Shown here in pieces: positions 27,244 to 59,384 of a DNA stretch of 64,000 nt. The notes beneath the pieces were generated by a model. It did no database searches and had not been told where the DNA came from. It saw only the letters and a list, made by a program, of their open reading frames with translations. This DNA comes from Shigella phage Ag3. The position numbers were made by a program, and so were the translations under genes. Position 1 is the stretch's first letter; every line of letters starts with the position of its first letter. The stretch lies in sequence record FJ373894; one strand, given 5' to 3'.

Positions 27244-29028
27244 TCAAGCGGAAGCATTCCATTGACCAGCATTGATCACCCATGTGCTCGTTACTTTTGA
27301 ATACACCATTTTCACGAGATTCATTTTCGTGGTGGCGGTGTTGGCACCAGTCACATCGACAGGGACACCCGCTATGCTCAATGAAGCAATGTTTGAACCT
27401 CTCAGTAAAAACGTCAGCTCCATACCATCATATGGCGTACCGGTAAATGCGATGTTGGAACCAGAAGAAACGTTTCTTCGATAGCACCCATAACCGCTGT
27501 TTATGTCGACAGAGTCAGTTGTGAGCTGTAATGGCAATTTTCCACGACTTAATTTACATGCCGTTACAACGCCGAGATCATCAATGCCTCGACTTGCGCC
27601 CCAACGTGCGATGTTGACTATGTGGCCAGTCACACCAGCGTCTTGCGCACCACCAATGTCGAAGAAACCTCCAGCCCTTGTTCCCCATATCGGCTCATCA
27701 ATTAAGCTGTTGGTGGAGTTGGTTATACTATACCCATGCGCGAGGGTTCCTTGGCTTGGGGAAGAGTGTGTACAATCTCGGAATGTGGCATCTTGAGAAC
27801 CACTGATGCGGACATCAGAGATACTATTGTTCTCATAATACATTCCATACACCTTAGTTCCCTTGGCCTGATCCAAGAATCCATATTTCGTGGTATTCTG
27901 GCTGAATCCGTTAACAAAACAGACTGCTTCTGTAGGGAATGTTGTGGTATAATCCCAAGAAGTCCCGCCGTCGGTGGAGTGTCTTACGATAATACCATAA
28001 TCCGGCATATCCACTTCCGGAGCACCAGAATAACCATCAAACCCTGTTATAACGATAGCATTGGCTCCGTTCTGTACTATTAACCGACTCGAACCAGCCC
28101 CACCACCGATAACCTCACAACCGTCTATCTTCAATCCATAACACAAAGTCCCTATCTCTATCCCGATATTATTAATGGCTGTGCCCATGTCCACCCACAT
28201 CATATCTAGATGACCATGGTTCCTCCAATATTTGGCTCTGAAAGCGACGCAACCCGTTTTACCATTCAACGATATCCTGATATTGTGTAATTTGCAGTTT
28301 CTCACTGCATTCCCACCAGAACGAGAAGGATCAATCGTGAGTACACCAACGTTGTTTTCACCAGCCAAGAATAATGCGCCGGAATGTGCATAAATTTCAG
28401 AGTTAGGATAAAACGCCAACGCCTGGCCAGTTACCGTATAGTTGCCAGGAAGAAACTGGAATGTCCCACCCTGGGATAATTTAGTTTGTATAAGAGACTG
28501 AGACATCGAAGGGTCGATAACAGTTAGACGATAAAACCCAGAGTATAACTCATCTCTTAATGCATCTGGATCCAATTTCACCCAGTTAGAACTTGACAAT
28601 CCACCAGTATTGGCAATGGTGCCACCAGCGTTTACAGATTTGGGTAAAGTCCCACCCCAACGGTAAAGACTTGTACCATCAGAAACGACTTCATTTCTTA
28701 CACGTATCGTGAACCCCGAATCGAAGTTTTCGACCAAAGTTACAAATTCCTTCCGAAGTACTGCAAGAACCCCCAGGTCTACGGTGCCCGTATTGTGTAC
28801 GAGAATGCCGTCTGCCATGCTGGTGATGGTAGCGCCAGCAGGCAGGTTAGAAGGCAGAGCATAGGAGCGCTGGGGCACCTTGTCGTAGATCACCTTATAA
28901 CCAGTCAGGGTGGATCCTGGTTTAGCATACAGAACCTCGGACTTCTTGCACCCGAACTTGCGTGCAATAGAGTCCTTGTTGGTCTCTTTCGAGACCGTAC
29001 CTTTCGGCTGTGAAAATTGCGGATTCAT
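27244..29028 (-). CDS. tailspike protein A (594 aa)
   Basis: N-terminus MNPQFSQPKG shared with 31692..33713; Gly/Asn/Thr-rich beta-helix-like repeats. Confidence 0.7.
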   Translation of the reverse strand: MNPQFSQPKGTVSKETNKDSIARKFGCKKSEVLYAKPGSTLTGYKVIYDKVPQRSYALPSNLPAGATITSMADGILVHNTGTVDLGVLAVLRKEFVTLVENFDSGFTIRVRNEVVSDGTSLYRWGGTLPKSVNAGGTIANTGGLSSSNWVKLDPDALRDELYSGFYRLTVIDPSMSQSLIQTKLSQGGTFQFLPGNYTVTGQALAFYPNSEIYAHSGALFLAGENNVGVLTIDPSRSGGNAVRNCKLHNIRISLNGKTGCVAFRAKYWRNHGHLDMMWVDMGTAINNIGIEIGTLCYGLKIDGCEVIGGGAGSSRLIVQNGANAIVITGFDGYSGAPEVDMPDYGIIVRHSTDGGTSWDYTTTFPTEAVCFVNGFSQNTTKYGFLDQAKGTKVYGMYYENNSISDVRISGSQDATFRDCTHSSPSQGTLAHGYSITNSTNSLIDEPIWGTRAGGFFDIGGAQDAGVTGHIVNIARWGASRGIDDLGVVTACKLSRGKLPLQLTTDSVDINSGYGCYRRNVSSGSNIAFTGTPYDGMELTFLLRGSNIASLSIAGVPVDVTGANTATTKMNLVKMVYSKVTSTWVINAGQWNASA

Positions 29029-31691: not shown

Positions 31692-33713
31692 TTAGCTTAG
31701 ATTTAGACTAAACCCACCATTTGACTTGCTTATCATACCACGAACAGTTTTGTTGCCTCCACCGCTGTATTCGTCATATTGCATTTTGACATTTACAGCG
31801 ATGTTGGCGTCAATTGAATCCCATCCAGCAAAGTTCAGGAACACATTTCCGCTAGTGTCTACTGATATTGTTGGCGTGGCTGCTGTTCCTTTTGTGAACG
31901 TACTTTGCACTGAACCTTCCATTGTGCTTGCTGCTGGAGTTGTACCCATCACTAATGTTCCCTGCAATCGCCCATGCCATGCGCTAGAAACACCTGAAAC
32001 CGGGGAGTTGGCTACAACATCAACCGTCCACAAACTTACGTTTCGGTACGTACTCACAGTGCCAATTTTAAAATTCCTGGAATCTCCAGCGGCTTTAATG
32101 AACAGCATTGAACCCGTAGCGCATTTACTTGAATCAGGCGCTGCACCTGCAGATGCAAAATCAGAGAATGTGCAATTATCAAATTTTACTTTGCTGTAAT
32201 CGGTAGCTGTTAACTTAGCTTCTGGTGCATTAACATTTTCGAATTTAACTCCGCCATAGTTCGCCACTGCGCCTGTAAGCTGATTGGTATTGACATATAC
32301 ATCACCACCATTCAGCTTTCGGACCACCAGGTCACGACAGATAAATCCATTAATAGAATCGCCTGACGTCCAGTTATCGTTGGTGTTGAAGTTAAAGAAC
32401 CATGCATGGTTACCAGAGTCTCCGCCGCCAAGTTCTATGCGTCCGGTGATCACAATATTTGAATAACCATAGCCACGCGGGTTATTATCTGCTACAGACT
32501 CGTCAATCAGCTTTGTTGTGCCAATAACACTTCCCCAATTCCCCCCGACGACATCATAATTGATGGTTATGTTACGCATCAGCCCGGCAATCATCGTCTC
32601 TGTTATGGTGCTGTCCCAACCCCAATCCAGCCATATTGGTGCTACGCGGTACGGAAGCGTGTAACGCCCTGTGCTACGATATTTGTAATTGACTGTAAGA
32701 TTAGATATTTGATTATCCATGTTACCGTTATAGAAATACATTTTGATTGGCGTACCCTGTTGAGTATCAATGGCATCAACAGTTATCTGGCCACCACCAC
32801 AATTGTTCGTCAGAAAGAAATCACGACGGCAACCATTATTAACTGTATGGATGTCAACTACACCAACATTACCAAGGAGATGTGGATAGCGAGTGTCATT
32901 GTTCACACTGCGAGCAAAGAGATTTTTTACATTAGTACATTCGTAGCCTTGATAGCACTTGTTAGTCTTGCCAATAAATGTGAAATTATTGCATCCATTC
33001 AGGCGCAGTGGGGTTAGTCCGCGTTTGTCATCACCGACATACTCAAGGGTGGAAGAAGCATCCACTTCAAACACCAGATTGGTGATATTCGTCAGGTCGA
33101 ACACGCGCGTCAGGTCAAATGCACCGGAGTAAAGCAGGGTGTCCCTGATAACCAGTCCGCGAATTTCAAGGCAGTCCATATTACTTAAAGTAAAGATGGT
33201 ACTAAGACCGCCACTACCAGGACCAAAGTTCACAACCTGGTCAAAAATAATTTCAACACTTTTTAGGTTGTTAGATGTGATGTAAGACTGCAAAGATTGC
33301 AGTGTACCGAATCGGGAGAAGTAAAGGACACGTTTGTTTACAACTGAATCAAGAGCATCTTTTACTGTAGATGATTCGTATCCGACAAGACTTGCCTTTT
33401 CACCCGTCAGCAGTTCAGAACCCAGCGTTTTGCTTTCAACGCTAACCCATGCTGAAGATGATACACCACCAGTTGATTGTGGTGTTGAGTTTTTGTTCAC
33501 AGTTTTGGGCAAAGACCCACCCCAGGTATAACACTGGGCACCATTGATATGCCACACGGCGTCGGTTGCAGTCGTCACAGTAGCACCGTCTTCAAAACTA
33601 CCTTCGACCAAATTAAGACCTAAATCCGACAAAGCCCGCCGCCACAATTCACGCGGGTTTTTGTTGATTTCTTTGGCTGTTGAACCTTTCGGCTGATTGA
33701 ATTGCGGATTCAT
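31692..33713 (-). CDS. tailspike protein C (673 aa)
   Basis: N-terminal module shared with 27244..29028 (MNPQFNQPKG, WGGSLPK, TGGVSSS); beta-helix-like repeats. Confidence 0.7.
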   Translation of the reverse strand: MNPQFNQPKGSTAKEINKNPRELWRRALSDLGLNLVEGSFEDGATVTTATDAVWHINGAQCYTWGGSLPKTVNKNSTPQSTGGVSSSAWVSVESKTLGSELLTGEKASLVGYESSTVKDALDSVVNKRVLYFSRFGTLQSLQSYITSNNLKSVEIIFDQVVNFGPGSGGLSTIFTLSNMDCLEIRGLVIRDTLLYSGAFDLTRVFDLTNITNLVFEVDASSTLEYVGDDKRGLTPLRLNGCNNFTFIGKTNKCYQGYECTNVKNLFARSVNNDTRYPHLLGNVGVVDIHTVNNGCRRDFFLTNNCGGGQITVDAIDTQQGTPIKMYFYNGNMDNQISNLTVNYKYRSTGRYTLPYRVAPIWLDWGWDSTITETMIAGLMRNITINYDVVGGNWGSVIGTTKLIDESVADNNPRGYGYSNIVITGRIELGGGDSGNHAWFFNFNTNDNWTSGDSINGFICRDLVVRKLNGGDVYVNTNQLTGAVANYGGVKFENVNAPEAKLTATDYSKVKFDNCTFSDFASAGAAPDSSKCATGSMLFIKAAGDSRNFKIGTVSTYRNVSLWTVDVVANSPVSGVSSAWHGRLQGTLVMGTTPAASTMEGSVQSTFTKGTAATPTISVDTSGNVFLNFAGWDSIDANIAVNVKMQYDEYSGGGNKTVRGMISKSNGGFSLNLS

Positions 33714-33759: not shown

Positions 33760-36700
33760 TTAGAAGTTGCGAGACATCTCGAACCATATACCAGCTCGGC
33801 GCTGGAGAGTCATGATAGCCAAGCCACCGGAAGCCGTGGCGTTCACCCCACCTTTGAGGCGCATCACAGTACTATTGTGAGTGAGGACAACCCCATCACC
33901 CATACGCAGGTTGATAATATCACCCGATTGTGCACCAGTGAAGTCGGTGATGGTTCCTGAAGCGATATACAGATTCGGACCAAACACCGCAGATGGGGTG
34001 CCACCCGACACCGTCACTTCACCTTTCGGATCATCAAGAGCAGTGACGTCTCTTATCACGTTGAAAGCGCCGCGCCCACGGCTAAGATAATACTTGCTGG
34101 TAGTAGCCCCGCGAGCAGCAATGTTGGTCAGGGAACCATCAGTCATCAGGGTTCCGGCGTCGTATGCATAAACAACATGCGGACGAGACGTGACCGAGTT
34201 AATGACTTCGTCATGGATGTTGACGTTGTACATTGCTTTGTTATTGGTGGCGGCCAGATAGATAGCGCAAGATCCCGCTCCATACGCGTTACCGCCGATA
34301 TTGATGTTGCCTGTGTCGCCAGCGATAGGAGTGGTGTTCGGGTTACGGGAACTACTGTAGATCGCCAGAGGATAGTCTGCGGTCAACACCCAATCAGATT
34401 CCACGGCGATGCTCGCCAAGGAACCAGCAAACAAGCCGTTGGCATTGACAGACACGTTGGTGACGCCAGCGCCCATGTAAACGCTGTATTTCCAGTCGCC
34501 GAGGATTGTATTCCCACTGACGGTACATTGGTCAACGCCCTTGTAAAGCTGGATCGCTGCGTCATCTGATGGAGATACAGCCGCTGTCGAAGTCTGGATA
34601 TGGTTACCAGAGATATTGATCCAACGACACCCCCAAGCGACGTTGACGCCAGAACTACCACCATCAATCAGAAGGTTGCCAACGACATTTACTCGCTGGC
34701 AGTTTGGACTGAGGTTGATGTTTCGGTGGGTGTTCCCTATGATGTGGTTCTTCGTAATCAGTGTGCGGAACAGACCCAGCCCCTGAACACCATGGGTGCC
34801 CCCAGAAATGAAGTTTCCTTCAATGATGGTATCGCGCAACGTGATCGTAGACGGGAACAACGGAACCCCAGCATTGGTGTCTAGGCCACCATACAGAGAT
34901 GTGATCTGCCCGATCATCCCGATGCCACAAATCGCATAGTTGCCTGTGCCCGCCCAAGGATCGGTTGGCATCTCAATGACGTTTTCGCTGATTTTGTTGT
35001 TGATGTTCATGGAAGTCGTGCTGGTCGTACCGATACGGATACCGTATGCCTCGCCAGTCCCATCCAGACCATAAACATAGTTCTTTTCAATAGTCGCACG
35101 GATAACGCCGGAAACGATGATACCCTTCCTGGTGTTGTTGTTGCCATTTAGGATACAGTTTCTGATTTGTAAATCGGTGTGCCCAGTATCAACAAAGGAG
35201 TAGAGCAGTGTGTCTGTGTTGGCAACGATACACTTCAGCTTCAGACCATCGATAACTTTGACACCAACTGTCACCAGAACACGGCCTACACCATAAACCT
35301 TTTCTGTACCGCGGACGATAACTCCTGGATGGCTCGCGGCATAATCAACAGCACCCTGAACAGCCAGAGTGAAATCTGTGTTTTCATCGACGTACTCACC
35401 AGCCGTAACCAGATGAGAGAATTGCTCTGGCGTGACATAGTATTGCATTTCGGCCAAAGTGCCCTGGGGTGTTACAACGACAGCGTTTGCACCCACCAGA
35501 CCTGTATTCCCGGCCAGCAACTCGCCTTTGTACGCTTCAAGGGCGTCTTTACTGCCAGGGGCTGGTAAGAGTGGCACCACAACGTTGCCAGGAGCGTAGG
35601 ACAAGTTGCTTCCGCTCACAGATACGATGGACGCGCCTGTTGGGATACCAGAAGGCAGACCCCAGATCTTCTGTGCAACGACATCATAGATAACCGTCTT
35701 TCCGTCCAGTTTGGTGATGGTATCGGACGACAAAATAACCTGAGAATTCGGTACGTTCACGGAACGTGCCACTTCGTTTGGTGTACGGTCGATCTGATTG
35801 TACAGGGTTGGGTCACCATTGATGACGACAACAACTTCATCACCAGCTTCGAGTTCGTCGGCCAGCGTGATGATCTTCGTAACGGAGTCATAAGTGAAGC
35901 CCAGGCCTTTCTGCTGGCGGGATCCATCGATAAAGATCTCAGAAACATCTTCGGCATCGACATCCAACTCGATCTCAGTTTCACCACCCACAGCTGATCC
36001 GCTATTGTATATCCAAGTGATAACCGTACCGCCGCCGGAACCACCGGAGCCATCGCCCAACTGGATCGGGACATATTGGATGACCTGCAGCTCGGAACCT
36101 GATGGGATTGATGGACTGAAGTCGACATTGAAACCATTGAGGGAATACTTTGACTCCAGCAGGCGCTTCCCGTCAACATACACATCAACAATGGACGGCT
36201 GTGTGGTGAGAGTTACCTGAGCTGTATCTGATGCAACTGTCTCAGTGAAGATGGTACGACTGTAAACGCGCCCCTGGCCAAGACCGACGCCAGCAGTCAC
36301 AATCCAACCACGCGCGTCTCCAGACCAGGTAAAGGTCGCAGACACGCTATCGGTGGAGAGAGTCATAGGCTCTACAGAGCCGTACATTGGGTGACCATTT
36401 GGGTCAATGGTCAGAGGATACAGGGAGAACTTTCCATACAAGTCACAGACTGTAACAGAATCGCCAATGCGCGTAGGGGAAGGGAACACCACCGTAGAGA
36501 CGCCTGTGGAGTTGTCTACCAGATAGCCTCGCCCTTCAGTGAGCGTTGCCGTAGAGGCATGCGGAAGGGCTTCCCAGCGGATACCACCGCCACCCAGCGG
36601 CAACCATCCACCATTTTCGTAGAAGCCCTCAAATTCGTCGGAGTCGGCATTGTAGCGAACAGAAGACGGGAGGCCTGCGCTGGCATTACCCTCGGGTAAA

Positions 36701-36819
36701 GTCAGGACAGCATCTGGTCCATGCTCAATCGTACCCGTGTTGAGGATACCAGCCAAAGTAGACTGTTCTTCAGCCACCAGACCGAGAGGGAAAACAGGCT
36801 GTGTTGGTTTATTAGCCAT
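33760..36819 (-). CDS. tailspike protein D (about 1019 aa, TSP4-like)
   Basis: ORF track 33760..36849; ATG at 36819 with GGGG RBS; long N-terminal domain plus C-terminal repeats. Confidence 0.7.
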   Translation of the reverse strand: MANKPTQPVFPLGLVAEEQSTLAGILNTGTIEHGPDAVLTLPEGNASAGLPSSVRYNADSDEFEGFYENGGWLPLGGGGIRWEALPHASTATLTEGRGYLVDNSTGVSTVVFPSPTRIGDSVTVCDLYGKFSLYPLTIDPNGHPMYGSVEPMTLSTDSVSATFTWSGDARGWIVTAGVGLGQGRVYSRTIFTETVASDTAQVTLTTQPSIVDVYVDGKRLLESKYSLNGFNVDFSPSIPSGSELQVIQYVPIQLGDGSGGSGGGTVITWIYNSGSAVGGETEIELDVDAEDVSEIFIDGSRQQKGLGFTYDSVTKIITLADELEAGDEVVVVINGDPTLYNQIDRTPNEVARSVNVPNSQVILSSDTITKLDGKTVIYDVVAQKIWGLPSGIPTGASIVSVSGSNLSYAPGNVVVPLLPAPGSKDALEAYKGELLAGNTGLVGANAVVVTPQGTLAEMQYYVTPEQFSHLVTAGEYVDENTDFTLAVQGAVDYAASHPGVIVRGTEKVYGVGRVLVTVGVKVIDGLKLKCIVANTDTLLYSFVDTGHTDLQIRNCILNGNNNTRKGIIVSGVIRATIEKNYVYGLDGTGEAYGIRIGTTSTTSMNINNKISENVIEMPTDPWAGTGNYAICGIGMIGQITSLYGGLDTNAGVPLFPSTITLRDTIIEGNFISGGTHGVQGLGLFRTLITKNHIIGNTHRNINLSPNCQRVNVVGNLLIDGGSSGVNVAWGCRWINISGNHIQTSTAAVSPSDDAAIQLYKGVDQCTVSGNTILGDWKYSVYMGAGVTNVSVNANGLFAGSLASIAVESDWVLTADYPLAIYSSSRNPNTTPIAGDTGNINIGGNAYGAGSCAIYLAATNNKAMYNVNIHDEVINSVTSRPHVVYAYDAGTLMTDGSLTNIAARGATTSKYYLSRGRGAFNVIRDVTALDDPKGEVTVSGGTPSAVFGPNLYIASGTITDFTGAQSGDIINLRMGDGVVLTHNSTVMRLKGGVNATASGGLAIMTLQRRAGIWFEMSRNF

Positions 36820-36822
36820 TTC

Positions 36823-36863
36823 AAATACCCCTAAATGTGTTCGTTTCATCTAGGGGTATTTAG
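36823..36863 (-). promoter_or_regulatory. CTAAATACCCCTAG motif plus inverted repeat upstream of tailspike D
   Basis: Arms AAATACCCCTA / TAGGGGTATTT; downstream arm supplies GGGG RBS. Confidence 0.4.
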
Positions 36864-46872: not shown

Positions 46873-48129
46873 ATGAACAAATTCGCTGCACAACCCCTCG
46901 CTCCATATATTCCGTTTCACACGTTAGGGAAAGGTCCATACAAAACGATTTTTGATGTCCTCTCTCTTCATCGTGAACATATTCACTGGGAAGACTACCT
47001 CTACAAACACACTCCGTGTGAACTCGTCGCCAACCCCGAAACTAACCAGCAGGTCTGGTTCAAGCGTGAAGATTACTTCGCGCCGCTATCTTGTTATATG
47101 AATGGCAAGCAGGGCATCAACGGCAGCAAACTCCGTCAGGCCATCTGGCTCATGGTTGAGCACCTGAAGGCCGGAGGCTCCCCTGACATCATCCACGGCA
47201 CTGTCGTTGGTAGTCCGCAGTCCCCTATGGCGACGGCAGTCTCTCGGCACTTCGGCGGCAAGACAACCACTGTACTCGGCGCGACCAAACCCACCACTTG
47301 TATGAACCATGATATGGTGGAAATGAGTGCCTGGTTCGGTAGTGAGTTCAACTTCGTCGGCTCCGGCTACAACAGCACCATCCAACCTCGCTGTAAGAAG
47401 CTCATCGAGCAGGTGAATCCAAAGGCGTACTACCTGGAATATGGTATTACCCTGGACCACACAGTGCATTCCCCCGAGCGCATCGCAGGATTCCATATGC
47501 TGGGCGGCGAGCAGGTTGCTAACATCCCTGACCATATCACCGATCTGATCATCCCTGCTGGATCATGCAACTCATGCACAAGCATCCTGACCGGGCTGGC
47601 GATGCACCCTAAGCCTAATCTGAAGCGTGTTTATCTGATTGGGATTGGACCAAACCGCCTGGACTTCATTGAGAGCCGCCTGCGCATCATCGGCAAACAG
47701 GCCAATCTGCCTCACATTGTCGACTTCACCCGTCGTTATCACGACAACCCAGACTATGTCCACGGCAAGAAGGAGCTTCAGCATGCCTCTAAGAGCGTTT
47801 CGCTGGCTGTCCTCCTAAGTGGTATCAGGCAGAAGGGAGAGCCAGAGGTCGTGCTTCCTCGTTTTGAGGTACACCATTGGGATCTTCACACCACCAATTG
47901 GGTTCGTTACAATGACCTGATGGATTATCAGTGGGGTGATATTGAGTTGCACCCTCGCTATGAAGGCAAGGTCATGACCTGGATCCAGCAGAACAAGCCC
48001 GAGTTGCTCAATGAGAACACTCTGTTCTGGATTGTGGGTAGCAAGCCGTACATCGAGCCAATGAAGGCCGCATGCCCTGAGCTGGCTATCCCAGATGAAG
48101 TGAACGTCAACACCTTCACTCCTTCCTGA
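46873..48129 (+). CDS. PLP-dependent enzyme, fold type II (ACC deaminase/D-cysteine desulfhydrase-like)
   Basis: FKREDYF...NGSKLRQA resembles KRDD...GGNKLRK lysine motif; 418 aa. Confidence 0.6.
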   Translation: MNKFAAQPLAPYIPFHTLGKGPYKTIFDVLSLHREHIHWEDYLYKHTPCELVANPETNQQVWFKREDYFAPLSCYMNGKQGINGSKLRQAIWLMVEHLKAGGSPDIIHGTVVGSPQSPMATAVSRHFGGKTTTVLGATKPTTCMNHDMVEMSAWFGSEFNFVGSGYNSTIQPRCKKLIEQVNPKAYYLEYGITLDHTVHSPERIAGFHMLGGEQVANIPDHITDLIIPAGSCNSCTSILTGLAMHPKPNLKRVYLIGIGPNRLDFIESRLRIIGKQANLPHIVDFTRRYHDNPDYVHGKKELQHASKSVSLAVLLSGIRQKGEPEVVLPRFEVHHWDLHTTNWVRYNDLMDYQWGDIELHPRYEGKVMTWIQQNKPELLNENTLFWIVGSKPYIEPMKAACPELAIPDEVNVNTFTPS

Positions 48130-51123: not shown

Positions 51124-54123
51124 ATGACCGTCTTCTATACGAACGTTGCCCGCCGGGGCAATGACCTGTTGATTCGAATCGCAGATGACATGGGTAATCG
51201 CCGTCTGTTGAAAAAGAAATTCGAACCCACTCTCTATTTACCCACGGCTGATTATTCAAATGTTGAAAAGGTCGGCTTGCTCAACGAACCCCTGGTCTCC
51301 AAGAAGTTCCCTGACATGCGCACTGCCGACAACTACCTTGAGGAGTATAAGGAAGTCCAGGGCGCGGCCATCTATGGACAGACGGATTATGCATACCAGT
51401 TCATCGCCCACAGTTTCCCTGGAAAGATTGAGCCGGATTACTCCAACATCCATATTGCTAACCTCGATATCGAAGTGTTCACCGCTGGGTGGAAAGACGG
51501 GGAGATGACCAAGGGTCCATTCCCTCATCCGACTATTGAGCAGCAGACGTTCAAAGGTAGCGAGGCACGCATCCGCCGCTTCCATCAGCAGGTACTGGCT
51601 AACCATGACTTCATCCGTGAGCACTTTCCCAGTTCCTTTATCAGCAACAACGTGACCGACCAGTTCCCTATCATTGATAGCAATGGCAAGATCACCCAGG
51701 ACATGAATGCAGCGTTCCCTATCACGCTCATCCAGCTTCAGGACATGGCGACCAATAAGTTCATGGTGTGGGGTATGCCGTGCGCGAAGGATCGTGCGAA
51801 GTTCAGATACGATCCAGAAGACGCGGAGATCGGTGGACTTGAGGTGGAGTACAAGGAGTTTGTCACCGAGCAGGATCTGCTGCGATCTTTCCTTGACTTC
51901 TGGTCACAGCGTCAGTTTGATGGCTGGACAGGCTGGAACATTGAAACGTTCGATAGCCCGTATCTTGTTGAGCGCATGAACCAGGTTCTGGGCGAAGCCG
52001 AAACATCGCGCCTCAGTCCTTGGGGTATCATCAAGAAGCGTATCATTCGCGATAAGAAGGGCGATATCACGACGTATCAGTTCGTGGGCTGTCCTATGCT
52101 CGATTATATGCAGATCTACAAGAAGCACACGTACACCACCCGTGAGCGGTACTCTCTTGATTGGATTGCTTACTGTGAGCTGGGTGAGAAGAAGATGGAC
52201 TACAGTGAGAGCAAGTCGCTCTTTGACCTGTACTTCAACGACTATGCCAAACACACCCGATATGGTATCAAGGACGTCAAGCTGGTATGGCGTCTTGAGC
52301 AGAAGCTGCGTTTGCTTCAGCTGATGTTCGTCCTTGCGTACCGCACCAAGTCCAACTATGAAGACGGCCTGGGTACAGTGGCTCCGTGGCTGGCCATGTG
52401 CTACTATCGTCTGTATGAGAAGGGGATAGTGCCTAAGATCCAGCGTGTATACGATGGTCCGACCGATTTTGAGGGCGCATACGTCATGGAGGTGACACCA
52501 GGAATCTACTTCTGGGTCTTCTCTGAGGACTTGAACTCCCTCTACCCTCACATCATCCAGCAATACAACCTCGGTCCTGAGACTATCGTTGGCGACAAAC
52601 ACCAGCGCCGTGAGATCATTGAGGCTATGTGTGAAGAGCTGGCTACTCAGATGAATAACATGGCAACGCCGATGCACAAACGTCGGTTGATGAAAGCCCT
52701 TCACGACAAACTGTTGCGTGCGATTGACGAACGCCTGCAGGTTGTTGATGAACTGGTTGCCCTGGGTGAGTTCCACTTTGAAACCCTGCGCCGCTACAAC
52801 GTGTCCTTCACGCCGAACGTTCAGTTCTTCAGCAACGAGAAGATGTCGTTCCTGTCTGAAATCATGCGCGGTATCTACAGTGACCGTAAAGTAGAGAAGG
52901 CCAAGGGGCTGAAGTACGAGCAGTGGGCTGGTTGGTGTAAAGAGATGGCGAAGGGTGACTTCCATCTTGAGTCTGCGATGAAGTCCCGCTACTACGATCC
53001 AGAGTGGTATGAAGAGCACAAGAACATTGATCTTGATGCACTGACCGAAGTGATGAAGAAGTGGGAAGATCTGGGCGTTGCTCAAGACACCCTACAGCAA
53101 GGTCTGAAGATCTTGATGAACGCAGGTTATGGCGCGATCTCAAACGTCTGGTTCAAAGAGTACTTCAACCTCAACATCGCCGAAGCCATCACCACATCTG
53201 GCCAGCTGATCAACAAATGGAACAAGCGTTACACCGATGATTACCTGAACAAGCTGTGTGGTACGACAGGCCAGGACTTCGTCATCGCGGGTGATACCGA
53301 CTCCAACTACATCTGCATTGAGCGTCTTGTCAAGCAGTTGTGGCCTGATGTTACTGACCATCATGCTATGGTTGATAATATCGACCAATGGATCAAAGAC
53401 AACTACCAGCCGAAGACCAATGAGTGGGCACAGCTTCTGTGTAACACCATGAACGGATTTGAACAGCGCATGGTGTGGGAGCGTGAAGTAATTGCATCAG
53501 CTGCCGTCTGGCGAGCCAAGAAGATGTATGCCATGGCCGTGTACGACAGTGAGGGTATCAAGTACGAGAAGCCGAAGATCAAGTTCAAAGGTCTGGAAGC
53601 CCGTAAGTCCACCACGCCGGAATGGTGTCGTGAGCGTCTTGTTAAGTGCTATGAGAAGATCCTACTCGGCACAGAAGAGGAAGTACAGACGCTCATCTCC
53701 CAGTACAAAGAGGAGTACATGAAGCTCTCTGTAGACGATATCGCCAAGGCGTCAGGCGTGTCCGACATAGAGAAGTGTGTGGCCGCCGACGGCTCGTTCA
53801 TCTCTGGTGCTCACTATGCTGCCAAGGCATGTGTGGGTTACAACCGCATGGTAGAGAAGAACGAAGACCTCGGCCTGCCGATGATTGAGTCGGGTGATAA
53901 GGTCAACATGGTACTGCTGAAGAATGGCAACCCGTTTGGCCAGAATTACTTCGCATATCCTGAGTTCTTCCCCGAGGAACTGGGTATGGGTAAATGGGTG
54001 GATTACCATACAGCCTTTGAGAAGTCCTTCATCGACCCGATTCAGTCCATCCTTGACGTGGTCGGCTGGTCGCACAAGCGTCGTGTGAACCTTCTTGCCA
54101 TGATGCAAAAGAAGAAAGGTTGA
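51124..54123 (+). CDS. DNA polymerase, family B (T4 gp43-like)
   Basis: FTGWNIETFD exo motif, SLYPHII, VIAGDTDS; 999 aa; GGAG RBS. Confidence 0.95.
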   Translation: MTVFYTNVARRGNDLLIRIADDMGNRRLLKKKFEPTLYLPTADYSNVEKVGLLNEPLVSKKFPDMRTADNYLEEYKEVQGAAIYGQTDYAYQFIAHSFPGKIEPDYSNIHIANLDIEVFTAGWKDGEMTKGPFPHPTIEQQTFKGSEARIRRFHQQVLANHDFIREHFPSSFISNNVTDQFPIIDSNGKITQDMNAAFPITLIQLQDMATNKFMVWGMPCAKDRAKFRYDPEDAEIGGLEVEYKEFVTEQDLLRSFLDFWSQRQFDGWTGWNIETFDSPYLVERMNQVLGEAETSRLSPWGIIKKRIIRDKKGDITTYQFVGCPMLDYMQIYKKHTYTTRERYSLDWIAYCELGEKKMDYSESKSLFDLYFNDYAKHTRYGIKDVKLVWRLEQKLRLLQLMFVLAYRTKSNYEDGLGTVAPWLAMCYYRLYEKGIVPKIQRVYDGPTDFEGAYVMEVTPGIYFWVFSEDLNSLYPHIIQQYNLGPETIVGDKHQRREIIEAMCEELATQMNNMATPMHKRRLMKALHDKLLRAIDERLQVVDELVALGEFHFETLRRYNVSFTPNVQFFSNEKMSFLSEIMRGIYSDRKVEKAKGLKYEQWAGWCKEMAKGDFHLESAMKSRYYDPEWYEEHKNIDLDALTEVMKKWEDLGVAQDTLQQGLKILMNAGYGAISNVWFKEYFNLNIAEAITTSGQLINKWNKRYTDDYLNKLCGTTGQDFVIAGDTDSNYICIERLVKQLWPDVTDHHAMVDNIDQWIKDNYQPKTNEWAQLLCNTMNGFEQRMVWEREVIASAAVWRAKKMYAMAVYDSEGIKYEKPKIKFKGLEARKSTTPEWCRERLVKCYEKILLGTEEEVQTLISQYKEEYMKLSVDDIAKASGVSDIEKCVAADGSFISGAHYAAKACVGYNRMVEKNEDLGLPMIESGDKVNMVLLKNGNPFGQNYFAYPEFFPEELGMGKWVDYHTAFEKSFIDPIQSILDVVGWSHKRRVNLLAMMQKKKG

Positions 54124-54176
54124 TTCAATAAACCAAAGGGGGATATAATTCCCCCTGTTAACCCTTTGACAAACAG

Positions 54177-54527
54177 GTGATTGAAATGAAACTCAATAAG
54201 ATTCTTCTGGTGTGCGCTCTGGCTTTCTCTACCACTGCATGCTCCACCCTTCTGGACGTTGCGTCTACTGTAGACCTTGACGCTCCGTCGTTCACCAATG
54301 AACAAGCCGTGTCTAAGATGGAAGATACCATCAAGGCTCATGCCGCTCTTGACAACACCACTCCTGGTCCATTACAGACCGTCTGCAACTATGACGATTC
54401 CATCCAGGAAGACGAAACCTACCACTGCACCACCTACGTGAAGCAGGCCTCTGTCGTACTGTATGCTGACTGCACCGAAGAGCAGTGCGTTGCCACAGGC
54501 TATGACAAAGTGGAGAAAGATCAATGA
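54177..54527 (+). CDS. putative lipoprotein (116 aa)
   Basis: Signal peptide MKLNKILLVCALAFSTTAC. Confidence 0.5.
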   Translation: MIEMKLNKILLVCALAFSTTACSTLLDVASTVDLDAPSFTNEQAVSKMEDTIKAHAALDNTTPGPLQTVCNYDDSIQEDETYHCTTYVKQASVVLYADCTEEQCVATGYDKVEKDQ

Positions 54528-55303
54528 ACAACCTGGTCTGTCTTTACGACGCAAACACGAAGGTCGGCGGCCTGTATCGCGTCCTGGTGGATGTTGATCT
54601 GACGTTGGTCGATAGCCTGTCCCCTTGGGTTCAGTGGTTCAATGAAGAGAACATCGCCGCCGCTGCTATCGCTACGGGGGAACATAAGTCATATCAGTTC
54701 CAGCCGATCACCAAAGAGTGTTATATGGCTCATGCTGGCGACCTGGCTATTCTGATGCGCGAACGTGCACATCCGGCGTGGTTGATACGCCGCGTGTACC
54801 TCGCTGGGCAATGGATGTATGCTCCTACAGGGCGTGATCCTATGGATTGGTGGCGTCGCCCCGATCTGTATGCCAAGATGAACCCGCTTCCTGGTGCTTA
54901 CGAGTTCCTGGTGAATCTGAAGAAGATTCTGCTCGAAGACTTTGACAATGTTGAATTCATCGCAGTGTCCAAGTGTGAGCCGGAACACGAGCGCAGCAAG
55001 CGCCAGTTTGTCTACGACAAGTTCCCTGGTATCTTCAACGGATTTGTCAGTACTGACGAAAAGCATCTGCTGGCAGGCGATGTCCTGATTGATGACAATC
55101 CGAAGTATGTTGAGCCGTGCGGCCTGAACAACATCTTCGTCATCTTTGTTCCTCAGGGCAATTATGAAAAACTGGATCTTTCGAATTCGGAAGATATGCT
55201 TTATATTAAACCAGTAGAAGGCCAGAACCACTTCGACTTCCTGAACCGCAATATTGTCGAAGTGGTGAATCGCCTGATTGGTCATTATCAATACGTCCGA
55301 TAG
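54524..55303 (+). CDS. HAD-superfamily 5'(3')-deoxyribonucleotidase-like phosphatase
   Basis: VLVDVDLTLVD (DxDxT) and DVLIDDNP motifs. Confidence 0.55.
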   Translation: MNNLVCLYDANTKVGGLYRVLVDVDLTLVDSLSPWVQWFNEENIAAAAIATGEHKSYQFQPITKECYMAHAGDLAILMRERAHPAWLIRRVYLAGQWMYAPTGRDPMDWWRRPDLYAKMNPLPGAYEFLVNLKKILLEDFDNVEFIAVSKCEPEHERSKRQFVYDKFPGIFNGFVSTDEKHLLAGDVLIDDNPKYVEPCGLNNIFVIFVPQGNYEKLDLSNSEDMLYIKPVEGQNHFDFLNRNIVEVVNRLIGHYQYVR

Positions 55304-55312
55304 GAGGACATC

Positions 55313-55618
55313 GTGCAAGAACAATCCAAGTTTGGGGAAACCCCAGACAAGCGTTCCGGTGATAGCGATATGGATGGCGTGATTATCCATGTCAACAACT
55401 TTATTCGCCAGCAGGAGACTCCGACTCCTATCGGCGCAGCCAAGGCTCTCCATGACGTACTGGTGGAGATCGGTCAGCGCTCTGAAGCGGATGAAATCTT
55501 CTATAACTTCGACGACCAGTATAAAGTGAAGTTTGAAGAGAATGGTCGTCCGCAGGTTGCTGTATTCTGGGCACCTTGGATGGGCGGCGTGAGCTGGCGT
55601 ATTGAGGATGCTATGTAA
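55313..55618 (+). CDS. hypothetical protein (101 aa)
   Basis: AGGAGGA RBS. Confidence 0.45.
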   Translation: MQEQSKFGETPDKRSGDSDMDGVIIHVNNFIRQQETPTPIGAAKALHDVLVEIGQRSEADEIFYNFDDQYKVKFEENGRPQVAVFWAPWMGGVSWRIEDAM

Positions 55619-56304
55619 TGCTGTCGCTCTACCTGATCACGAATCTCGTCAATCATAAATTCTATATCGGTGTCACTTCAGAACCGGATAGGCGGTTGGC
55701 TGAGCATAAGTGTGGTCAGGGGAGCATTGCATTACAACGAGCGTTCAAGAAATATGGTGAAGACCAGTTCACGTTTGAAGTTCTGTTCCGAGGGAAGGAA
55801 TCAGTTATCCTTGAGATAGAGTCTGAACTGGTCTGTCAGGAGATCCTTGACTCTGGGTGGTGCTACAATATGGTCGTCGGTGGTGGGAAGCCTCCATTGG
55901 CCACGCCTGATTCATCCGCAAAGAGTGCTGCAACCCGCAAACGTTTGATCGCTGAGGGTAAGATCAAGCCACCTCCCCGCATATCGGCTGAGTCACAAAG
56001 AAGGGGTGGTGAAACCAGAAGGAAACTGATATCCGAGGGAGTGATAAAGAAGCCATTACCTCCCTCTCCAGAAGCCCAGAGGCGAGCAGGTGAAACAAGG
56101 AAACAGTTGCATGCTCTTGGCCTGATAGACATTGGTCCTGGCCGCGATGAAACGATTTACAAATGGCAGCACAAAGATGGTCGCATTGTTGAGTTAAGAA
56201 GATGCGATATGGAACTTCAATATGGCCTCCCTTCTGGTAATATAACGAATCTCTTGAAAGGTAGGGCTAAAACATGTCTCGGTTGGAGAATAATGAATGG
56301 CTAA
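55618..56304 (+). CDS. GIY-YIG homing endonuclease (Seg/I-TevI-like)
   Basis: LYLITNLVNHKFYIGVTS...RRLAEH matches GIY-YIG; Arg-rich C-terminal repeats. Confidence 0.8.
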   Translation: MLSLYLITNLVNHKFYIGVTSEPDRRLAEHKCGQGSIALQRAFKKYGEDQFTFEVLFRGKESVILEIESELVCQEILDSGWCYNMVVGGGKPPLATPDSSAKSAATRKRLIAEGKIKPPPRISAESQRRGGETRRKLISEGVIKKPLPPSPEAQRRAGETRKQLHALGLIDIGPGRDETIYKWQHKDGRIVELRRCDMELQYGLPSGNITNLLKGRAKTCLGWRIMNG

Positions 56305-57214
56305 AATAATTGTAGTGAAGGGAACAAGTGGCGTGGGCAAGGGTACGAGAGTGGTCCAGTTCATCGAATGGCTCCGTACGAAGCTGGAGCCTACCGAACT
56401 CACCTACACCATTGGTGACAAGACGCGCCCGTTTGGCCTGAAATTCGAAGAGCTGAAGTTAATCTTCGTCGGCCAGTACACTGTGTCCAACAAATCTGGC
56501 CTGGCCTCCTGGACTTCCATGGATGCTATTCATGCTACCACAGGCTCGGGTGATATCGCTCGTGATCTGGTCAAAGGCTGGCTGGCCCAGGGTTACACTC
56601 TGGTGTGCGAGGGCGAACCTCTGATGCTGTCGGATAAATGGCGTCCTGAATGGATGTTCAAGAACTATCCGATTGAATCACTGTCACTGCTGTACTTTGC
56701 ATACCCTGACCGCTATCAGTACGATGCCCGCATCCGTGGTCGCTCTGGTAAAGAAGCAGGGGACTCCGGCTGGTCGCGCAACGAATCTTACTCCAAGGAG
56801 TTTGAGAAGTCGAAGGCCGAAATGCTGGCGCTGGGCTTCACTGTGGCTGTTGATGATTACAGCGGACAGGATATCCTGTATAAATCACCGGATGCCAACA
56901 CCCAGGAGTTCCTGACCAGGCAGCAGTCGGAGTTGGCGGTACTGCCGTTCGACGCCCCGCTTTGGGTGGTGGGTAATGCGATTTGTCATCAGATACGCTC
57001 TGAACTGCGCGATGTTGACATGCACACCAAAGACTTCTACGCCTACTGCGAAACCAATCCGATGACCCGTGAGGTCGGTGGCCGGGATCCTTTGGCGCAC
57101 AGAGTCCCTGAGAAGCCGCAGAAGGCATCCAAAACTAAAACCAAGGCGAGCGCCCAGCCAGAAGCACCGAAGGCGGCGTCGCGCTCTCTCCTTGACCTGA
57201 TGAAGAAGGGGTGA
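56297..57214 (+). CDS. P-loop kinase (candidate DNA/nucleotide kinase)
   Basis: Walker A VVKGTSGVGKGT; 305 aa; overlaps endonuclease stop. Confidence 0.6.
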   Translation: MAKIIVVKGTSGVGKGTRVVQFIEWLRTKLEPTELTYTIGDKTRPFGLKFEELKLIFVGQYTVSNKSGLASWTSMDAIHATTGSGDIARDLVKGWLAQGYTLVCEGEPLMLSDKWRPEWMFKNYPIESLSLLYFAYPDRYQYDARIRGRSGKEAGDSGWSRNESYSKEFEKSKAEMLALGFTVAVDDYSGQDILYKSPDANTQEFLTRQQSELAVLPFDAPLWVVGNAICHQIRSELRDVDMHTKDFYAYCETNPMTREVGGRDPLAHRVPEKPQKASKTKTKASAQPEAPKAASRSLLDLMKKG

Positions 57215-57414
57215 TCATGAAACGGTTGTCTAATTATCTGTTATTCGTCGGTCTGGTTATGGCAGCCGTTTCAATGTGCGCTGCCCTAGCCTATCATTTC
57301 ACCCCTCTGGGCTTAACAACCTCAGAGAAGTTGAACGTGACTGTGATGTACTGTATTGGCGCGGTGATGTCTATCGGCGCTGCTGGTTACAAAATATTCA
57401 AGGAACCAAAATGA
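57211..57414 (+). CDS. small membrane protein (67 aa)
   Basis: ORF track; hydrophobic. Confidence 0.4.
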   Translation: MIMKRLSNYLLFVGLVMAAVSMCAALAYHFTPLGLTTSEKLNVTVMYCIGAVMSIGAAGYKIFKEPK

Positions 57415-57791
57415 AAATTCAAATCCCTCGCGATGCTGTGGCTGTCGCAATTGACTACACCGGAAACGCCAAGCACATTACTGCCGTGCGCCTGATTCCT
57501 GAAAAGAACTGCGTGATCCCTCAGTTCCAGCTGAACGCCAACCCGTCGTCCAAAGACTTCGGTCAGTGGCTGCAGGCTGCTCCGTTCCGTACCCAGACGA
57601 ATGCCCAGATGTTCATCTCGGGTAAGACCCACACTGCAGCCCGTCTGTGGTTCGTGACCGCTGACCGTCGCTTTGTCGATATGTGGGAGCGCCCGATGGG
57701 GTTCGTGAAACCAGAAGACATTCAGCTGGCTCCTGAGCCTGAAGTTGTTGCTCCTGCCGAGGAAGCGAAAGATGAAGATCAGGTCGGTTGA
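57411..57791 (+). CDS. hypothetical protein (126 aa)
   Basis: ATG overlaps upstream stop (ATGA); AAGGAA RBS; ORF track gives 57276..57791. Confidence 0.5.
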   Translation: MKIQIPRDAVAVAIDYTGNAKHITAVRLIPEKNCVIPQFQLNANPSSKDFGQWLQAAPFRTQTNAQMFISGKTHTAARLWFVTADRRFVDMWERPMGFVKPEDIQLAPEPEVVAPAEEAKDEDQVG

Positions 57792-57957
57792 TTTTATCTT
57801 CATGATGCTGATGTTCGTTATCTTTACGGTTTCACTCGTCGGTGTCATGGTCACAGAAGGGGTTCCACAACGCCCCTTCCTGGTGATTTGTCCTATATCG
57901 ATCACCACTTTCTTCTATCTGGCGTTCCGTGTTGAACTGGGGACCAAACTCAAATGA
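57772..57957 (+). CDS. small membrane protein
   Basis: ORF track 57745..57957; ATG at 57772 after GGAAG. Confidence 0.35.
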   Translation: MKIRSVDFIFMMLMFVIFTVSLVGVMVTEGVPQRPFLVICPISITTFFYLAFRVELGTKLK

Positions 57958-59180
57958 CCCATCTATCTAAAATGCCGACGGGCTACGCGCCCCCGGCTGA
58001 ATGGAAGTACCCGATTGACCTGGCTGTTGATTATCGTAAGCCTGAGAATCGCATGTACCTGCTCAAGGCTTGGGTGGAGGCGCTGTCCTACACCGAAGAG
58101 CACAACCAGCAGATGCGTCTGATGGATTATGCGATCGAAGTCACTGAAGGTATCAGCCTCGAACAGAAAGTCGAGCGCAAGATCTGGATGGCATTCCTTT
58201 GGGGTTGTTGCTACAACGCCATCGGTCCATGGACGATCTACAGTGAGTTCCCTGTGCCACCACAGTCCAAAGAAGAGATGCAGCGCTTCTCTGATTGGTA
58301 CAACCTGAACTTTGATCGCATGCGCTTCGATACCGACTGTCGCTACCGCAAGTCGAAGATGATTCCATGTGTTCAGTCCTATATTGACTGGCTGGCTGGC
58401 CGTACTCAATATGACGCTTTCCGTGAGATGTTGGTGTGCATCGATAAAGCAGAACAATTCACTCAGCTGTGGGACACGGCGATGTCCTGGAAATACTTCG
58501 GTCGCCTCAGTGCCTGGAACTTCCTAGAAGCCCTGAACATGGTCTTCGGGGACGAATACACCATTGACGTCCCTGGCTTCATGCTGCGTGACCGTGATGG
58601 CAGTGAGTCCAACCGTAATGGCGCGGCGTTCTTGTCCAACCGTGATGATTGGGTGACCAAGCATGGGAAGAAAAAGATCAATGGCTGTCCTATCACTGAT
58701 GAAGAGTGTGACATCCTTGAGGCCGACCTTGAACAGGCGTTCAAGGAATGCGTGGCTGAGTTCGGGCATCTGACGTTCATCAATCGCCTGAACTTTGAAA
58801 CCTCCGGCGCATGCTGGCTGAAGAAGTTCTTCCGTGAAAAGAACACCCGTTACATTGGGTGGGATGCCGAGCGTACCTGGGATGAGATCGACTACATGGA
58901 ACGCATCTGGCCGGAGTACTCCTGTGCAGCGCTCTGGGAAGCCCGTTCACTCTGGCTACCAGATACCCTGTTATGCGAAAAGGCACCTCCAGGGCACGTT
59001 CCAGGCGTTCAGAAGTGGAAGATGCCTGTGTTCTTTGAGACTGGCGTTCCTCTGCACATCTGGCATCTGCAAAAGGGTACGCGCTGGGAGCCTGACCAGG
59101 TGTATCGAGAATTGGGTAAACCGAAGATTGATAAACCGAAGTCCAACAGCGTCAACCTCATGGCACTCTTGAAACGCTGA
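57954..59180 (+). CDS. hypothetical protein (408 aa)
   Basis: ORF track; coupled to neighbours. Confidence 0.55.
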   Translation: MTHLSKMPTGYAPPAEWKYPIDLAVDYRKPENRMYLLKAWVEALSYTEEHNQQMRLMDYAIEVTEGISLEQKVERKIWMAFLWGCCYNAIGPWTIYSEFPVPPQSKEEMQRFSDWYNLNFDRMRFDTDCRYRKSKMIPCVQSYIDWLAGRTQYDAFREMLVCIDKAEQFTQLWDTAMSWKYFGRLSAWNFLEALNMVFGDEYTIDVPGFMLRDRDGSESNRNGAAFLSNRDDWVTKHGKKKINGCPITDEECDILEADLEQAFKECVAEFGHLTFINRLNFETSGACWLKKFFREKNTRYIGWDAERTWDEIDYMERIWPEYSCAALWEARSLWLPDTLLCEKAPPGHVPGVQKWKMPVFFETGVPLHIWHLQKGTRWEPDQVYRELGKPKIDKPKSNSVNLMALLKR

Positions 59181-59216
59181 TATAAATATCCTCGCCTATA
59201 AAGTGAGGATATTATC

Positions 59217-59384
59217 ATGTTACAAGATCTGTTGGTCTACGCACTTCCGGGTGTGGTTGTTGGATTCATCGCAGGTGCTCTGGTCTTCCGCAAACACGCG
59301 CAAGACGGTGAAGTGATTGTTCAGAAGGGTAAAGACATCCTGGAACAAATCGAAGCCAAACTGGACGAGCTGAAGAAAAAGTAA
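59217..59384 (+). CDS. small membrane protein (55 aa)
   Basis: Manually found; GTGAGGA RBS; MLQDLLVYALPGVVVGFIAGALVF. Confidence 0.4.
   Translation: MLQDLLVYALPGVVVGFIAGALVFRKHAQDGEVIVQKGKDILEQIEAKLDELKKK

What the first reader, a model, noticed from the sequence alone, without database searches (positions are those of the whole stretch)
55618..56304. Free-standing GIY-YIG homing endonuclease between polymerase-region genes and the kinase
Clear GIY-YIG N-terminal domain with repeated Arg-rich units in the C-terminal DNA-binding region. Its stop overlaps the kinase start. Together with the terminase intein it shows this genome hosts several selfish elements.
Basis: partly seen in the sequence, partly recalled or inferred. 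Interest (0 to 1): 0.4.

Follow-up and report, generated by a model that had tools for sequence, protein, structure and literature searches.

The report
Mobile GIY-YIG homing endonuclease gene
This is an ordinary but well-preserved selfish "homing endonuclease" gene sitting just in front of a DNA-modification kinase gene in a ViI-like (Agtrevirus) phage, and comparison with relatives shows it has been moving between phages and carrying a short stretch of the kinase gene with it.

The parts
55618..56304 (+). Free-standing GIY-YIG homing endonuclease gene (228 aa)
   Evidence: ORF; Pfam GIY-YIG E=4e-8; PHROG 19446 E=4.6e-106; 97% nt identity to the gene annotated 'homing endonuclease' in phage RPN242.
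55618..55893 (+). Catalytic domain, residues 1-92 (GIY-YIG alpha/beta fold)
55903..56145 (+). Three 27-aa basic helix plus Pro-rich repeats (residues 96-176); presumed extended DNA-contacting linker
   Evidence: Repeat statistics; helices 97-112, 124-139 and 151-166 in the model. No Pfam family, NUMOD3 included, matched the C-terminal 130 residues in a scan up to E=10. Two divergent alleles exist at gene nt ~360-480, 55-60% identical.
56146..56301 (+). Conserved C-terminal domain (residues 177-228); presumed sequence-specific DNA-binding module
55621..56299 (+). The 679-bp segment absent from empty-site relatives; AATG is present at both boundaries
   Evidence: Empty sites read ...TAATG|GCTAAA...; the filled site reads ...TAATG[CTGTCG...GAATG]GCTAAA.... 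Annotated empty sites.
55604..55608 (+). GAGGA ribosome-binding site, 9 nt before the endonuclease ATG; the same site serves the kinase in empty-site phages
   Evidence: Junction alignment.
56285..56288 (+). GGAG ribosome-binding site for the kinase, 8 nt before its ATG, encoded by the endonuclease's conserved Gly-Trp-Arg codons
   Evidence: TGGAG is conserved in all 8 filled loci examined, including two Vibrio phages. G222 and W223 are invariant and R224 nearly so.
56297..56356 (+). First 60 nt of the kinase gene (start codon to P-loop GTSGVGKGT): the endonuclease-linked recoded tract and inferred target/immunity region
   Evidence: Differences between carrier and non-carrier pairs cluster here: 14 against 3 (p=3e-10) and 17 against 9 (p=1e-9), with only 1-2 amino-acid changes. 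The same tracts occur in some empty-site contigs.
55764..56334 (+). About 570-bp RPN242-type conversion patch inside a ChubbyThor-type backbone
   Evidence: Mapping of 375 informative sites: about 86 of about 92 sites in the patch match RPN242, while 54769-55755 and 56338-57040 mostly match ChubbyThor.
55313..55618 (+). Upstream neighbour, DUF7254 protein gene
   Evidence: Pfam E=5.7e-54.
56297..57214 (+). Downstream neighbour and probable target gene, 5-hmdU DNA kinase (HMUD2)
   Evidence: Pfam PF18747 E=1.1e-159.

Best explanation
The ORF encodes a functional, or very recently functional, free-standing GIY-YIG homing endonuclease of the I-TevI/Seg kind. Proposed mechanism: when a carrier phage and a related non-carrier co-infect a cell, the protein binds the non-carrier's DNA through its C-terminal domain and basic repeats. 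Its N-terminal nuclease then cuts near the start of the 5-hmdU DNA kinase gene. The break is resected and repaired by phage recombination using the carrier genome as template, which copies the endonuclease gene and adjacent kinase sequence into the recipient. The carrier protects itself because the first ~60 nt of its kinase gene are recoded, mostly synonymously. The element is nearly harmless to its host operon: it uses the kinase's original ribosome-binding site for itself, provides a new GGAG for the kinase from its own last codons, and ends inside kinase codons 2-3. SHOWN: the fold, the intact catalytic residues, the exact insertion, the patchy distribution, the discordant phylogeny, the conversion tracts and purifying selection. 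INFERRED: cleavage activity, and the position of the cut site in the kinase 5' end (roughly 50% confidence on that specific location).
For: Domain and fold. Catalytic residues intact and invariant. Exact 679-bp presence/absence at the DUF7254|kinase junction. Patchy carriage: 20 of 239 flank-matching records, spread over Agtrevirus, Limestonevirus, Kuttervirus and Taipeivirus, plus Vibrio Ackermannviridae at 50-62% amino-acid identity at the same site. Discordant phylogeny: allotria and ChubbyThor are 93% identical in the endonuclease gene but 75% in DNA polymerase; the window and ChubbyThor are 87% against 98.7%; the window and RPN242 are 97.2% against 93.0%. Co-conversion: Kuttervirus allotria has Agtrevirus-like flanks for about 750 bp upstream and about 500 bp downstream before becoming Vi01-like. 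The window has a 570-bp RPN242-type patch ending at kinase nt 38-42. Recoded tract. Empty sites that carry the linked tracts, as expected when repair copies the resistant site but not the gene. Purifying selection in all three regions, dN/dS 0.05-0.23. A second GIY-YIG lineage uses the same site, marking it as a homing hotspot. Established knowledge of free-standing endonuclease homing, separated cut and insertion sites, co-conversion and marker exclusion: review PMC2988022.
Against: There is no biochemical or genetic evidence of cleavage for any family member. The cut site is inferred only from linkage, and the linked tract could be plain hitchhiking of sequence next to the insertion. The first 23 nt of the 'linked' kinase allele also occur in many empty sites, so only nt ~24-60 discriminate. 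The C-terminal domain model has low confidence, and no curated DNA-binding family matches above threshold. Strong purifying selection and conservation from Vibrio to enteric phages could also fit a function that benefits the phage.
Confidence: 0.8

Rival explanations
1. It is a domesticated nuclease kept for the phage's benefit, such as degrading unmodified host DNA like the T4 EndoII GIY-YIG enzyme or excluding competitors, rather than a self-propagating element.
Confidence: 0.1
2. The patchy distribution reflects an ancestral gene lost many times by precise deletion between the flanking AATG repeats, with no active homing.
For: AATG is present at both boundaries. Empty sites carry endonuclease-type kinase 5' ends: SW16-7, SKML-39, Gloob, and L020, L022, L023. 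The gene is present in deep-branching Vibrio phages.
Against: Loss alone cannot explain an endonuclease gene 93% identical between phages whose polymerases are 75% identical. It also cannot explain Agtrevirus-type flanks inside a Kuttervirus genome, or the 570-bp foreign patch in the window. Losses probably occur as well, as part of the usual gain/loss cycle.
Confidence: 0.06
3. It is an inactive remnant, or acts only as a DNA-binding or regulatory protein, with the nuclease function lost.
For: Cleavage is untested. I-TevI is known to double as a transcriptional autorepressor (PMC2988022).
Against: All six catalytic positions are intact and invariant. The catalytic domain itself is under purifying selection, with dN/dS 0.05-0.15. 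There are no frameshifts or stop codons in any of 10 alleles examined.
Confidence: 0.04

Closest known systems
I-TevI (phage T4 td intron endonuclease), catalytic domain structures 1LN0 and 1MK0
   Different: It is not intron-encoded. Identity in the catalytic domain is only 26-28%. There was no sequence match to I-TevI beyond the catalytic domain, and no match to its DNA-binding domain. The linker here is three 27-aa basic repeats.
T4 free-standing Seg endonucleases (SegA-SegG), several shown experimentally to home and cause marker exclusion
   Same: Free-standing GIY-YIG gene inserted between conserved genes, in the same orientation as its neighbours, overlapping the upstream ORF, sporadic among relatives, and associated with co-conversion of flanks (PMC2988022). 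The catalytic domain is 32-42% identical to SegC, SegB, SegE, SegA and SegD (E=1e-10 to 1e-13).
   Different: Similarity stops at the catalytic domain, apart from SegC to residue 131. SegD is not the best match, so the public 'SegD-like' label does not indicate orthology. This protein keeps the I-TevI-type R-x3-H motif where the T4 Seg proteins compared have a (D/N)DGY(M/L)GSG motif. It also has a different host family, target gene and DNA modification (5-hmdU derivatives rather than glucosyl-hmC).
Annotated orthologues in Ackermannviridae (RPN242 gp182 'SegD-homing endonuclease', P46FS4 ORF190, AV101, ChubbyThor gp25, allotria_184, PWKp5_00172); PHROG 19446
   Same: Same gene at the same junction, 85-97% amino-acid identity. 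Full-length PHROG match at E=4.6e-106.
   Different: The window carries the rarer 'type I' allele of the repeat region, shared with RPN242, A221 and P46FS4, in a ChubbyThor-like backbone. I found no experimental work on any orthologue.
F-LimXI of Dickeya phage LIMEstone1 (ORF186; Adriaenssens et al. 2012, PMC3296691)
   Same: Putative free-standing GIY-YIG homing endonuclease at the same DUF7254|kinase junction, also patchy across genera with 29 records.
   Different: It is an unrelated lineage: 24% identity over the catalytic domain (E=8e-4), with the Seg-type YMGSG motif. It is annotated as one 531-aa ORF continuous with a divergent kinase that is 50% identical to the window's.

Membership tests
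GIY-YIG nuclease superfamily (Pfam PF01541) | Sequence match above the curated threshold | tested here: met
   33.9 bits against a cut-off of 22.6, E=4e-8, residues 3-70.
GIY-YIG nuclease superfamily (Pfam PF01541) | The two Tyr motifs (GIY...YIG) and the catalytic Arg, His, Glu and Asn | tested here: met
   SLY5 and FY16IG, R26, H30, E68 and N84 align with I-TevI Y6, Y17, R27, H31, E75 and N90. All are invariant in 16 sequences.
GIY-YIG nuclease superfamily (Pfam PF01541) | Three-stranded sheet flanked by helices | tested here: met
Free-standing homing endonuclease gene (Seg-type mobile element) | Not embedded in an intron or intein; lies between intact genes | tested here: met
   In empty sites the DUF7254 stop and the kinase start abut (TAATG). 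Both genes are intact with or without the insertion.
Free-standing homing endonuclease gene (Seg-type mobile element) | Sporadic presence among close relatives, with a precise empty site | tested here: met
   20 of 239 records carry it; exact 679-bp difference.
Free-standing homing endonuclease gene (Seg-type mobile element) | Horizontal spread with co-conversion of flanking sequence | tested here: met
   Gene identity conflicts with polymerase identity. Foreign flanks in allotria. A 570-bp patch in the window. Clustered flank differences.
Free-standing homing endonuclease gene (Seg-type mobile element) | Site-specific cleavage of the endonuclease-less allele, and over-inheritance in mixed infection | not testable with these tools
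   Needs an in vitro cleavage assay and phage crosses. I found no published data for this family.
NUMOD-type DNA-binding modules of homing endonucleases (NUMOD1, NUMOD3, I-HmuI_NUMOD-like) | Match to the Pfam models above threshold | tested here: not met
   No NUMOD1 or NUMOD3 match was reported in a scan up to E=10 (HMMER's filters drop most matches above about 0.1). I-HmuI_NUMOD-like scored 13.4-14.6 bits against a cut-off of 27. The resemblance of 'LPSGNITNLLKGRAKTCLGW' to NUMOD1-type helix-turn-helix motifs is from memory only.
T4 SegD orthologue (the 'SegD-like' label in public records) | SegD is the best T4 match, with similarity across the full length | tested here: not met
   SegC, SegB, SegE and SegA all score better than SegD. 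SegD aligns over residues 4-94 only. The best T4-like phage hit, a Slopekvirus gene between the capsid and vertex genes, covers residues 4-155 at 34.8% identity.

The most novel reading that the evidence does not exclude
The start and P-loop codons of the 5-hmdU DNA kinase gene may be a contested homing site where specificity and immunity co-evolve. Two unrelated GIY-YIG lineages use it: this family and F-LimXI. Within this family there are two sharply divergent alleles of the DNA-contacting repeat region, and each tends to be inherited with its own recoded kinase tract. Type I goes with AAGGGAACAAGTGGCGTGGG, and type II with AAAGGCACCTCGGCCACGGG. The window's 570-bp patch transfers exactly the DNA-binding part of the endonuclease together with its matching kinase tract. 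If the two alleles really have different target specificities, this would be a natural, sequence-resolved case of endonuclease and target co-evolution. It would operate on DNA whose thymidines are replaced by 5-hmdU derivatives.
Probability: 0.2. Interest if true: 0.5.

Novelty: already known. Interest (0 to 1): 0.25.

Why it matters
Its importance is modest. Homing endonuclease genes are a recognised feature of Aglimvirinae genomes, at 14-25 per genome (PMC8472413), and orthologues of this one are already annotated. The useful output is specific. First, the insertion site is defined exactly, and there is a testable prediction that the enzyme cuts within the first ~60 nt of the naive 5-hmdU DNA kinase gene. 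Second, the element shuffles a short piece of an essential DNA-hypermodification gene between phage genera, which matters when interpreting mosaicism and taxonomy in therapeutic Ackermannviridae phages. Third, a propagated annotation error is explained: the kinase is labelled 'homing endonuclease' in several records. If the enzyme is active on 5-hmdU-containing DNA with a long recognition site, it could also be a useful reagent.

Tried and rejected
- **Paralogues in the window:** tblastn of the protein against the 64-kb window found nothing below E=1.9.
- **NUMOD3 or other curated family for the repeats and C-terminal domain:** a Pfam scan up to E=10 gave only one sub-threshold I-HmuI_NUMOD-like hit. 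PDB sequence searches found nothing beyond the catalytic domain.
- **RNA hairpin hiding the endonuclease's ribosome-binding site, as in several T4 endonucleases:** the fold of 55578-55657 is not unusual (z=-0.85), and the kinase start region is unstructured (z=0.17).
- **Own promoter or terminator:** scan hits in 54000-59300 were no more frequent than in shuffles. The only good promoter-like site (54120-54149) lies after the polymerase gene, so the endonuclease probably rides the operon transcript.
- **Census in IMG/VR by exact junction patterns:** too few contigs to be quantitative (0 filled, 7 empty with the type-A kinase start, 2 naive). The empty contigs were still informative.
- **SegD orthology:** rejected.
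- **EndoII-like host-DNA nuclease:** considered and rejected on distribution, architecture and structural ranking.

Full report
**Observation**

The window contains a 228-codon ORF at 55618-56304 on the + strand. Its ATG overlaps the stop of the upstream gene (TAATG). Its TAA at 56302-56304 lies inside the next gene, whose ATG is at 56297, giving an 8-nt overlap (ATGGCTAA).

Pfam places the neighbours as follows:
- DNA polymerase, 51124-54123
- DUF7292, 54177-54527
- an NT5C-like nucleotidase, 54524-55303
- DUF7254, 55313-55618
- the ORF in question
- HMUD2 5-hmdU DNA kinase, 56297-57214 (E=1e-159)
- an amino acid:DNA transferase, 57954-59180

This is the thymidine-hypermodification region of a ViI-like phage. 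Over 24 kb the window is closest to Shigella phage ChubbyThor (Agtrevirus, Ackermannviridae) at 97.0% identity, and no record reaches 99%.

**The protein**

Residues 3-70 match Pfam GIY-YIG above the curated threshold (E=4e-8). The whole length matches PHROG 19446 'homing endonuclease' (E=4.6e-106).

Sequence and profile alignments to 1MK0 and 1LN0 put Y5, Y16, R26, H30, E68 and N84 opposite I-TevI Y6, Y17, R27, H31, E75 and N90. All six are invariant in family members down to 50% identity.

Residues 96-176 are three in-register 27-aa units, each a basic helix followed by a proline-rich spacer. Units 2 and 3 share 12 of 27 residues, reached by 0 of 20,000 shuffles. Residues 177-228 are the most conserved part of the family. 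They match no curated DNA-binding family above threshold, and no Pfam match was found for the repeats. I infer that this half binds DNA from the architecture of I-TevI/Seg enzymes; it is not shown.

**The insertion**

In SKML-39, Gloob, MK-13, LHE287, SW16-7, EspM4VN and Vi01, the DUF7254 stop and the kinase start abut as TAATG. The window differs by exactly 679 bp (55621-56299), with AATG at both boundaries.

The element uses the GAGGA that serves the kinase in empty sites (55604-55608). It gives the kinase a new GGAG (56285-56288), encoded by its own conserved Gly-Trp-Arg codons. This arrangement and the 8-nt overlap are conserved in all eight filled loci examined, including two Vibrio phages. 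The insertion therefore leaves the operon's translational coupling intact. I found no endonuclease-specific promoter and no occluding RNA structure.

**Mobility signatures**

- **Patchy carriage.** 239 phage records match the flanks but only 20 carry the gene. The carriers are scattered over Agtrevirus, Limestonevirus, Kuttervirus and Taipeivirus. More distant versions at 50-62% amino-acid identity sit at the same place in Vibrio Ackermannviridae.
- **Discordant phylogeny.**

| Pair | Endonuclease gene identity | DNA polymerase 3' end identity |
|---|---|---|
| allotria vs ChubbyThor | 93.2% | 75.5% |
| window vs ChubbyThor | 87.2% | 98.7% |
| window vs RPN242 | 97.2% | 93.0% |

- **Foreign flanks.** Kuttervirus allotria has Agtrevirus-like flanks for about 750 bp upstream and about 500 bp downstream of the gene, then reverts to Vi01-like sequence.
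- **A patch in the window.** Mapping of 375 informative sites shows a ChubbyThor-type backbone carrying an RPN242-type patch from 55764 to 56334. This covers roughly endonuclease codons 49-228 plus the first 38 nt of the kinase gene.
- **Purifying selection.** Pairwise dN/dS is 0.05-0.23 overall and is low in each of the three regions. None of the 10 alleles examined has a disruption.

Together these show a functional gene that moves horizontally along with its flanks.

**Where it probably cuts (inferred)**

In two independent pairs of close relatives, one carrier and one non-carrier, the flank differences pile up in the first 60 nt of the kinase gene:
- RPN242 vs LHE287: 14 differences in nt 1-60 against 3 in nt 61-400 (Fisher p=3e-10).
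- ChubbyThor vs MK-13: 17 against 9 (p=1e-9).

These cause only 1-2 amino-acid changes and include multi-base synonymous switches such as Ser AGC to TCG and Arg CGT to AGA.

For free-standing endonucleases, the sequence between the cut site and the insertion site is always co-converted, and carriers must have resistant sites (PMC2988022). The tract therefore probably contains the recognition or cleavage site, which overlaps the kinase P-loop codons.

Some empty-site genomes carry exactly these linked tracts: SW16-7, and IMG/VR contigs L020, L022 and L023. That fits either repair that copied the resistant site without the gene, or later precise loss of the gene.

There are caveats. The first 23 nt of the linked allele are common in empty sites too, and linkage alone cannot exclude hitchhiking. 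I give the location about even odds.

**Comparison with known systems**

The enzyme works like I-TevI and the T4 Seg proteins. It meets every computationally testable criterion for a free-standing GIY-YIG homing endonuclease. Cleavage and over-inheritance cannot be tested here.

It is not a SegD orthologue. T4 SegC, SegB, SegE and SegA all score better than SegD, and apart from SegC (to residue 131) the alignments cover only the catalytic domain.

Homing endonucleases are a known feature of these phages: 14 in LIMEstone1 (PMC3296691) and 14-25 in Aglimvirinae (PMC8472413).

LIMEstone1's F-LimXI occupies the same junction but belongs to a different GIY-YIG lineage, at 24% identity. It is annotated as one ORF continuous with a divergent kinase, and it occurs in 29 records across several genera. 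The junction is therefore a hotspot used by two lineages.

**Verdict**

The feature is real, intact and evidently mobile, but it is of a well-known kind, and orthologues are already annotated as homing endonucleases. Interest is low to moderate. The only mildly novel angle is the possible co-inheritance of DNA-binding-region alleles with matching recoded kinase tracts, which needs biochemistry to evaluate.

Noticed in passing
window 16401-18620 (-), insert at about 17811-18284: The terminase large subunit (739 aa) has its Walker A motif interrupted: ARQSGK|CVKGDS...GFLSHN|TTVVAAF. This is a ~158-residue mini-intein-like insert (residues 113-270) with Cys1, a C-terminal His-Asn and Thr at +1. 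The Pfam Intein_splicing hit is 26.4 bits, below the cut-off of 35.8.
   Followed up: partly
L018 5333-6928 (Dickeya phage LIMEstone1, HE600015): A different GIY-YIG endonuclease (F-LimXI, 24% identical in the catalytic domain) occupies the same DUF7254|kinase junction. It is annotated as a single 531-aa ORF running in frame into a divergent kinase (50% identity to the window's). It is found in 29 records from Dickeya, Salmonella, Escherichia, Enterobacter, Yersinia and Klebsiella phages. I did not check whether the kinase is translated separately from an internal start.
   Followed up: partly
L008 3271-4200 (XF4), L002 2595-3512 (Gloob gp194); also FrontPhageNews and Guerrero: The 5-hmdU DNA kinase is labelled 'putative homing endonuclease (F-LimXI)' in XF4 and Gloob. 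Two further records with no endonuclease insertion at this junction also list a 'putative homing endonuclease' under the match. In XF4 the true endonuclease gene is labelled 'hypothetical protein'. This is probably an annotation error propagated from the LIMEstone1 fused ORF. It also explains why PHROG 15209 'endonuclease' matches the kinase.
   Followed up: yes
L010 about 3274-3335 (Salmonella phage P46FS4): This carrier phage has a 1-nt deletion in the kinase P-loop codons (GGGAAAGGTACG). It breaks the reading frame, and the record annotates a truncated kinase starting 220 nt downstream. The deletion lies exactly in the inferred target tract. It could be a repair scar or a homopolymer sequencing error.
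   Followed up: partly
window about 55978-56097 (endonuclease gene nt ~360-480): There are two sharply divergent alleles of the second repeat, only 55-60% identical at the nucleotide level. Type I is in the window, RPN242 and P46FS4. Type II is in ChubbyThor, AV101, XF4, allotria and PWKp5. In type I, repeat 2 resembles repeat 3 more closely, which suggests intragenic conversion.
   Followed up: partly
L020, L022, L023 (IMG/VR contigs); L014 (SW16-7): These empty-site genomes carry kinase 5' tracts identical or nearly identical to those linked to type I or type II endonuclease alleles. They are candidate 'resistant empty' sites left by incomplete co-conversion or by precise loss of the gene.
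   Followed up: partly
window 46873-48129, 54524-55303, 56297-57214, 57954-59180: The thymidine-hypermodification gene set is present: a PLP-dependent enzyme (below the Pfam cut-off), an NT5C-like nucleotidase, the 5-hmdU DNA kinase and an amino acid:DNA transferase. The endonuclease's natural substrate is therefore DNA with modified thymidines.
   Followed up: no
window 51124-54123: The DNA polymerase gene is a single uninterrupted 999-codon ORF here, whereas LIMEstone1's is split into three pieces by two endonuclease-containing insertions, I-LimII and I-LimIII.
   Followed up: no
window 27244-29028, 29230-31506, 31692-33713, 33760-36849 (-): Four consecutive large ORFs have tail-spike N-terminal and/or beta-helix domains, the multi-tailspike array typical of this phage family.
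   Followed up: no
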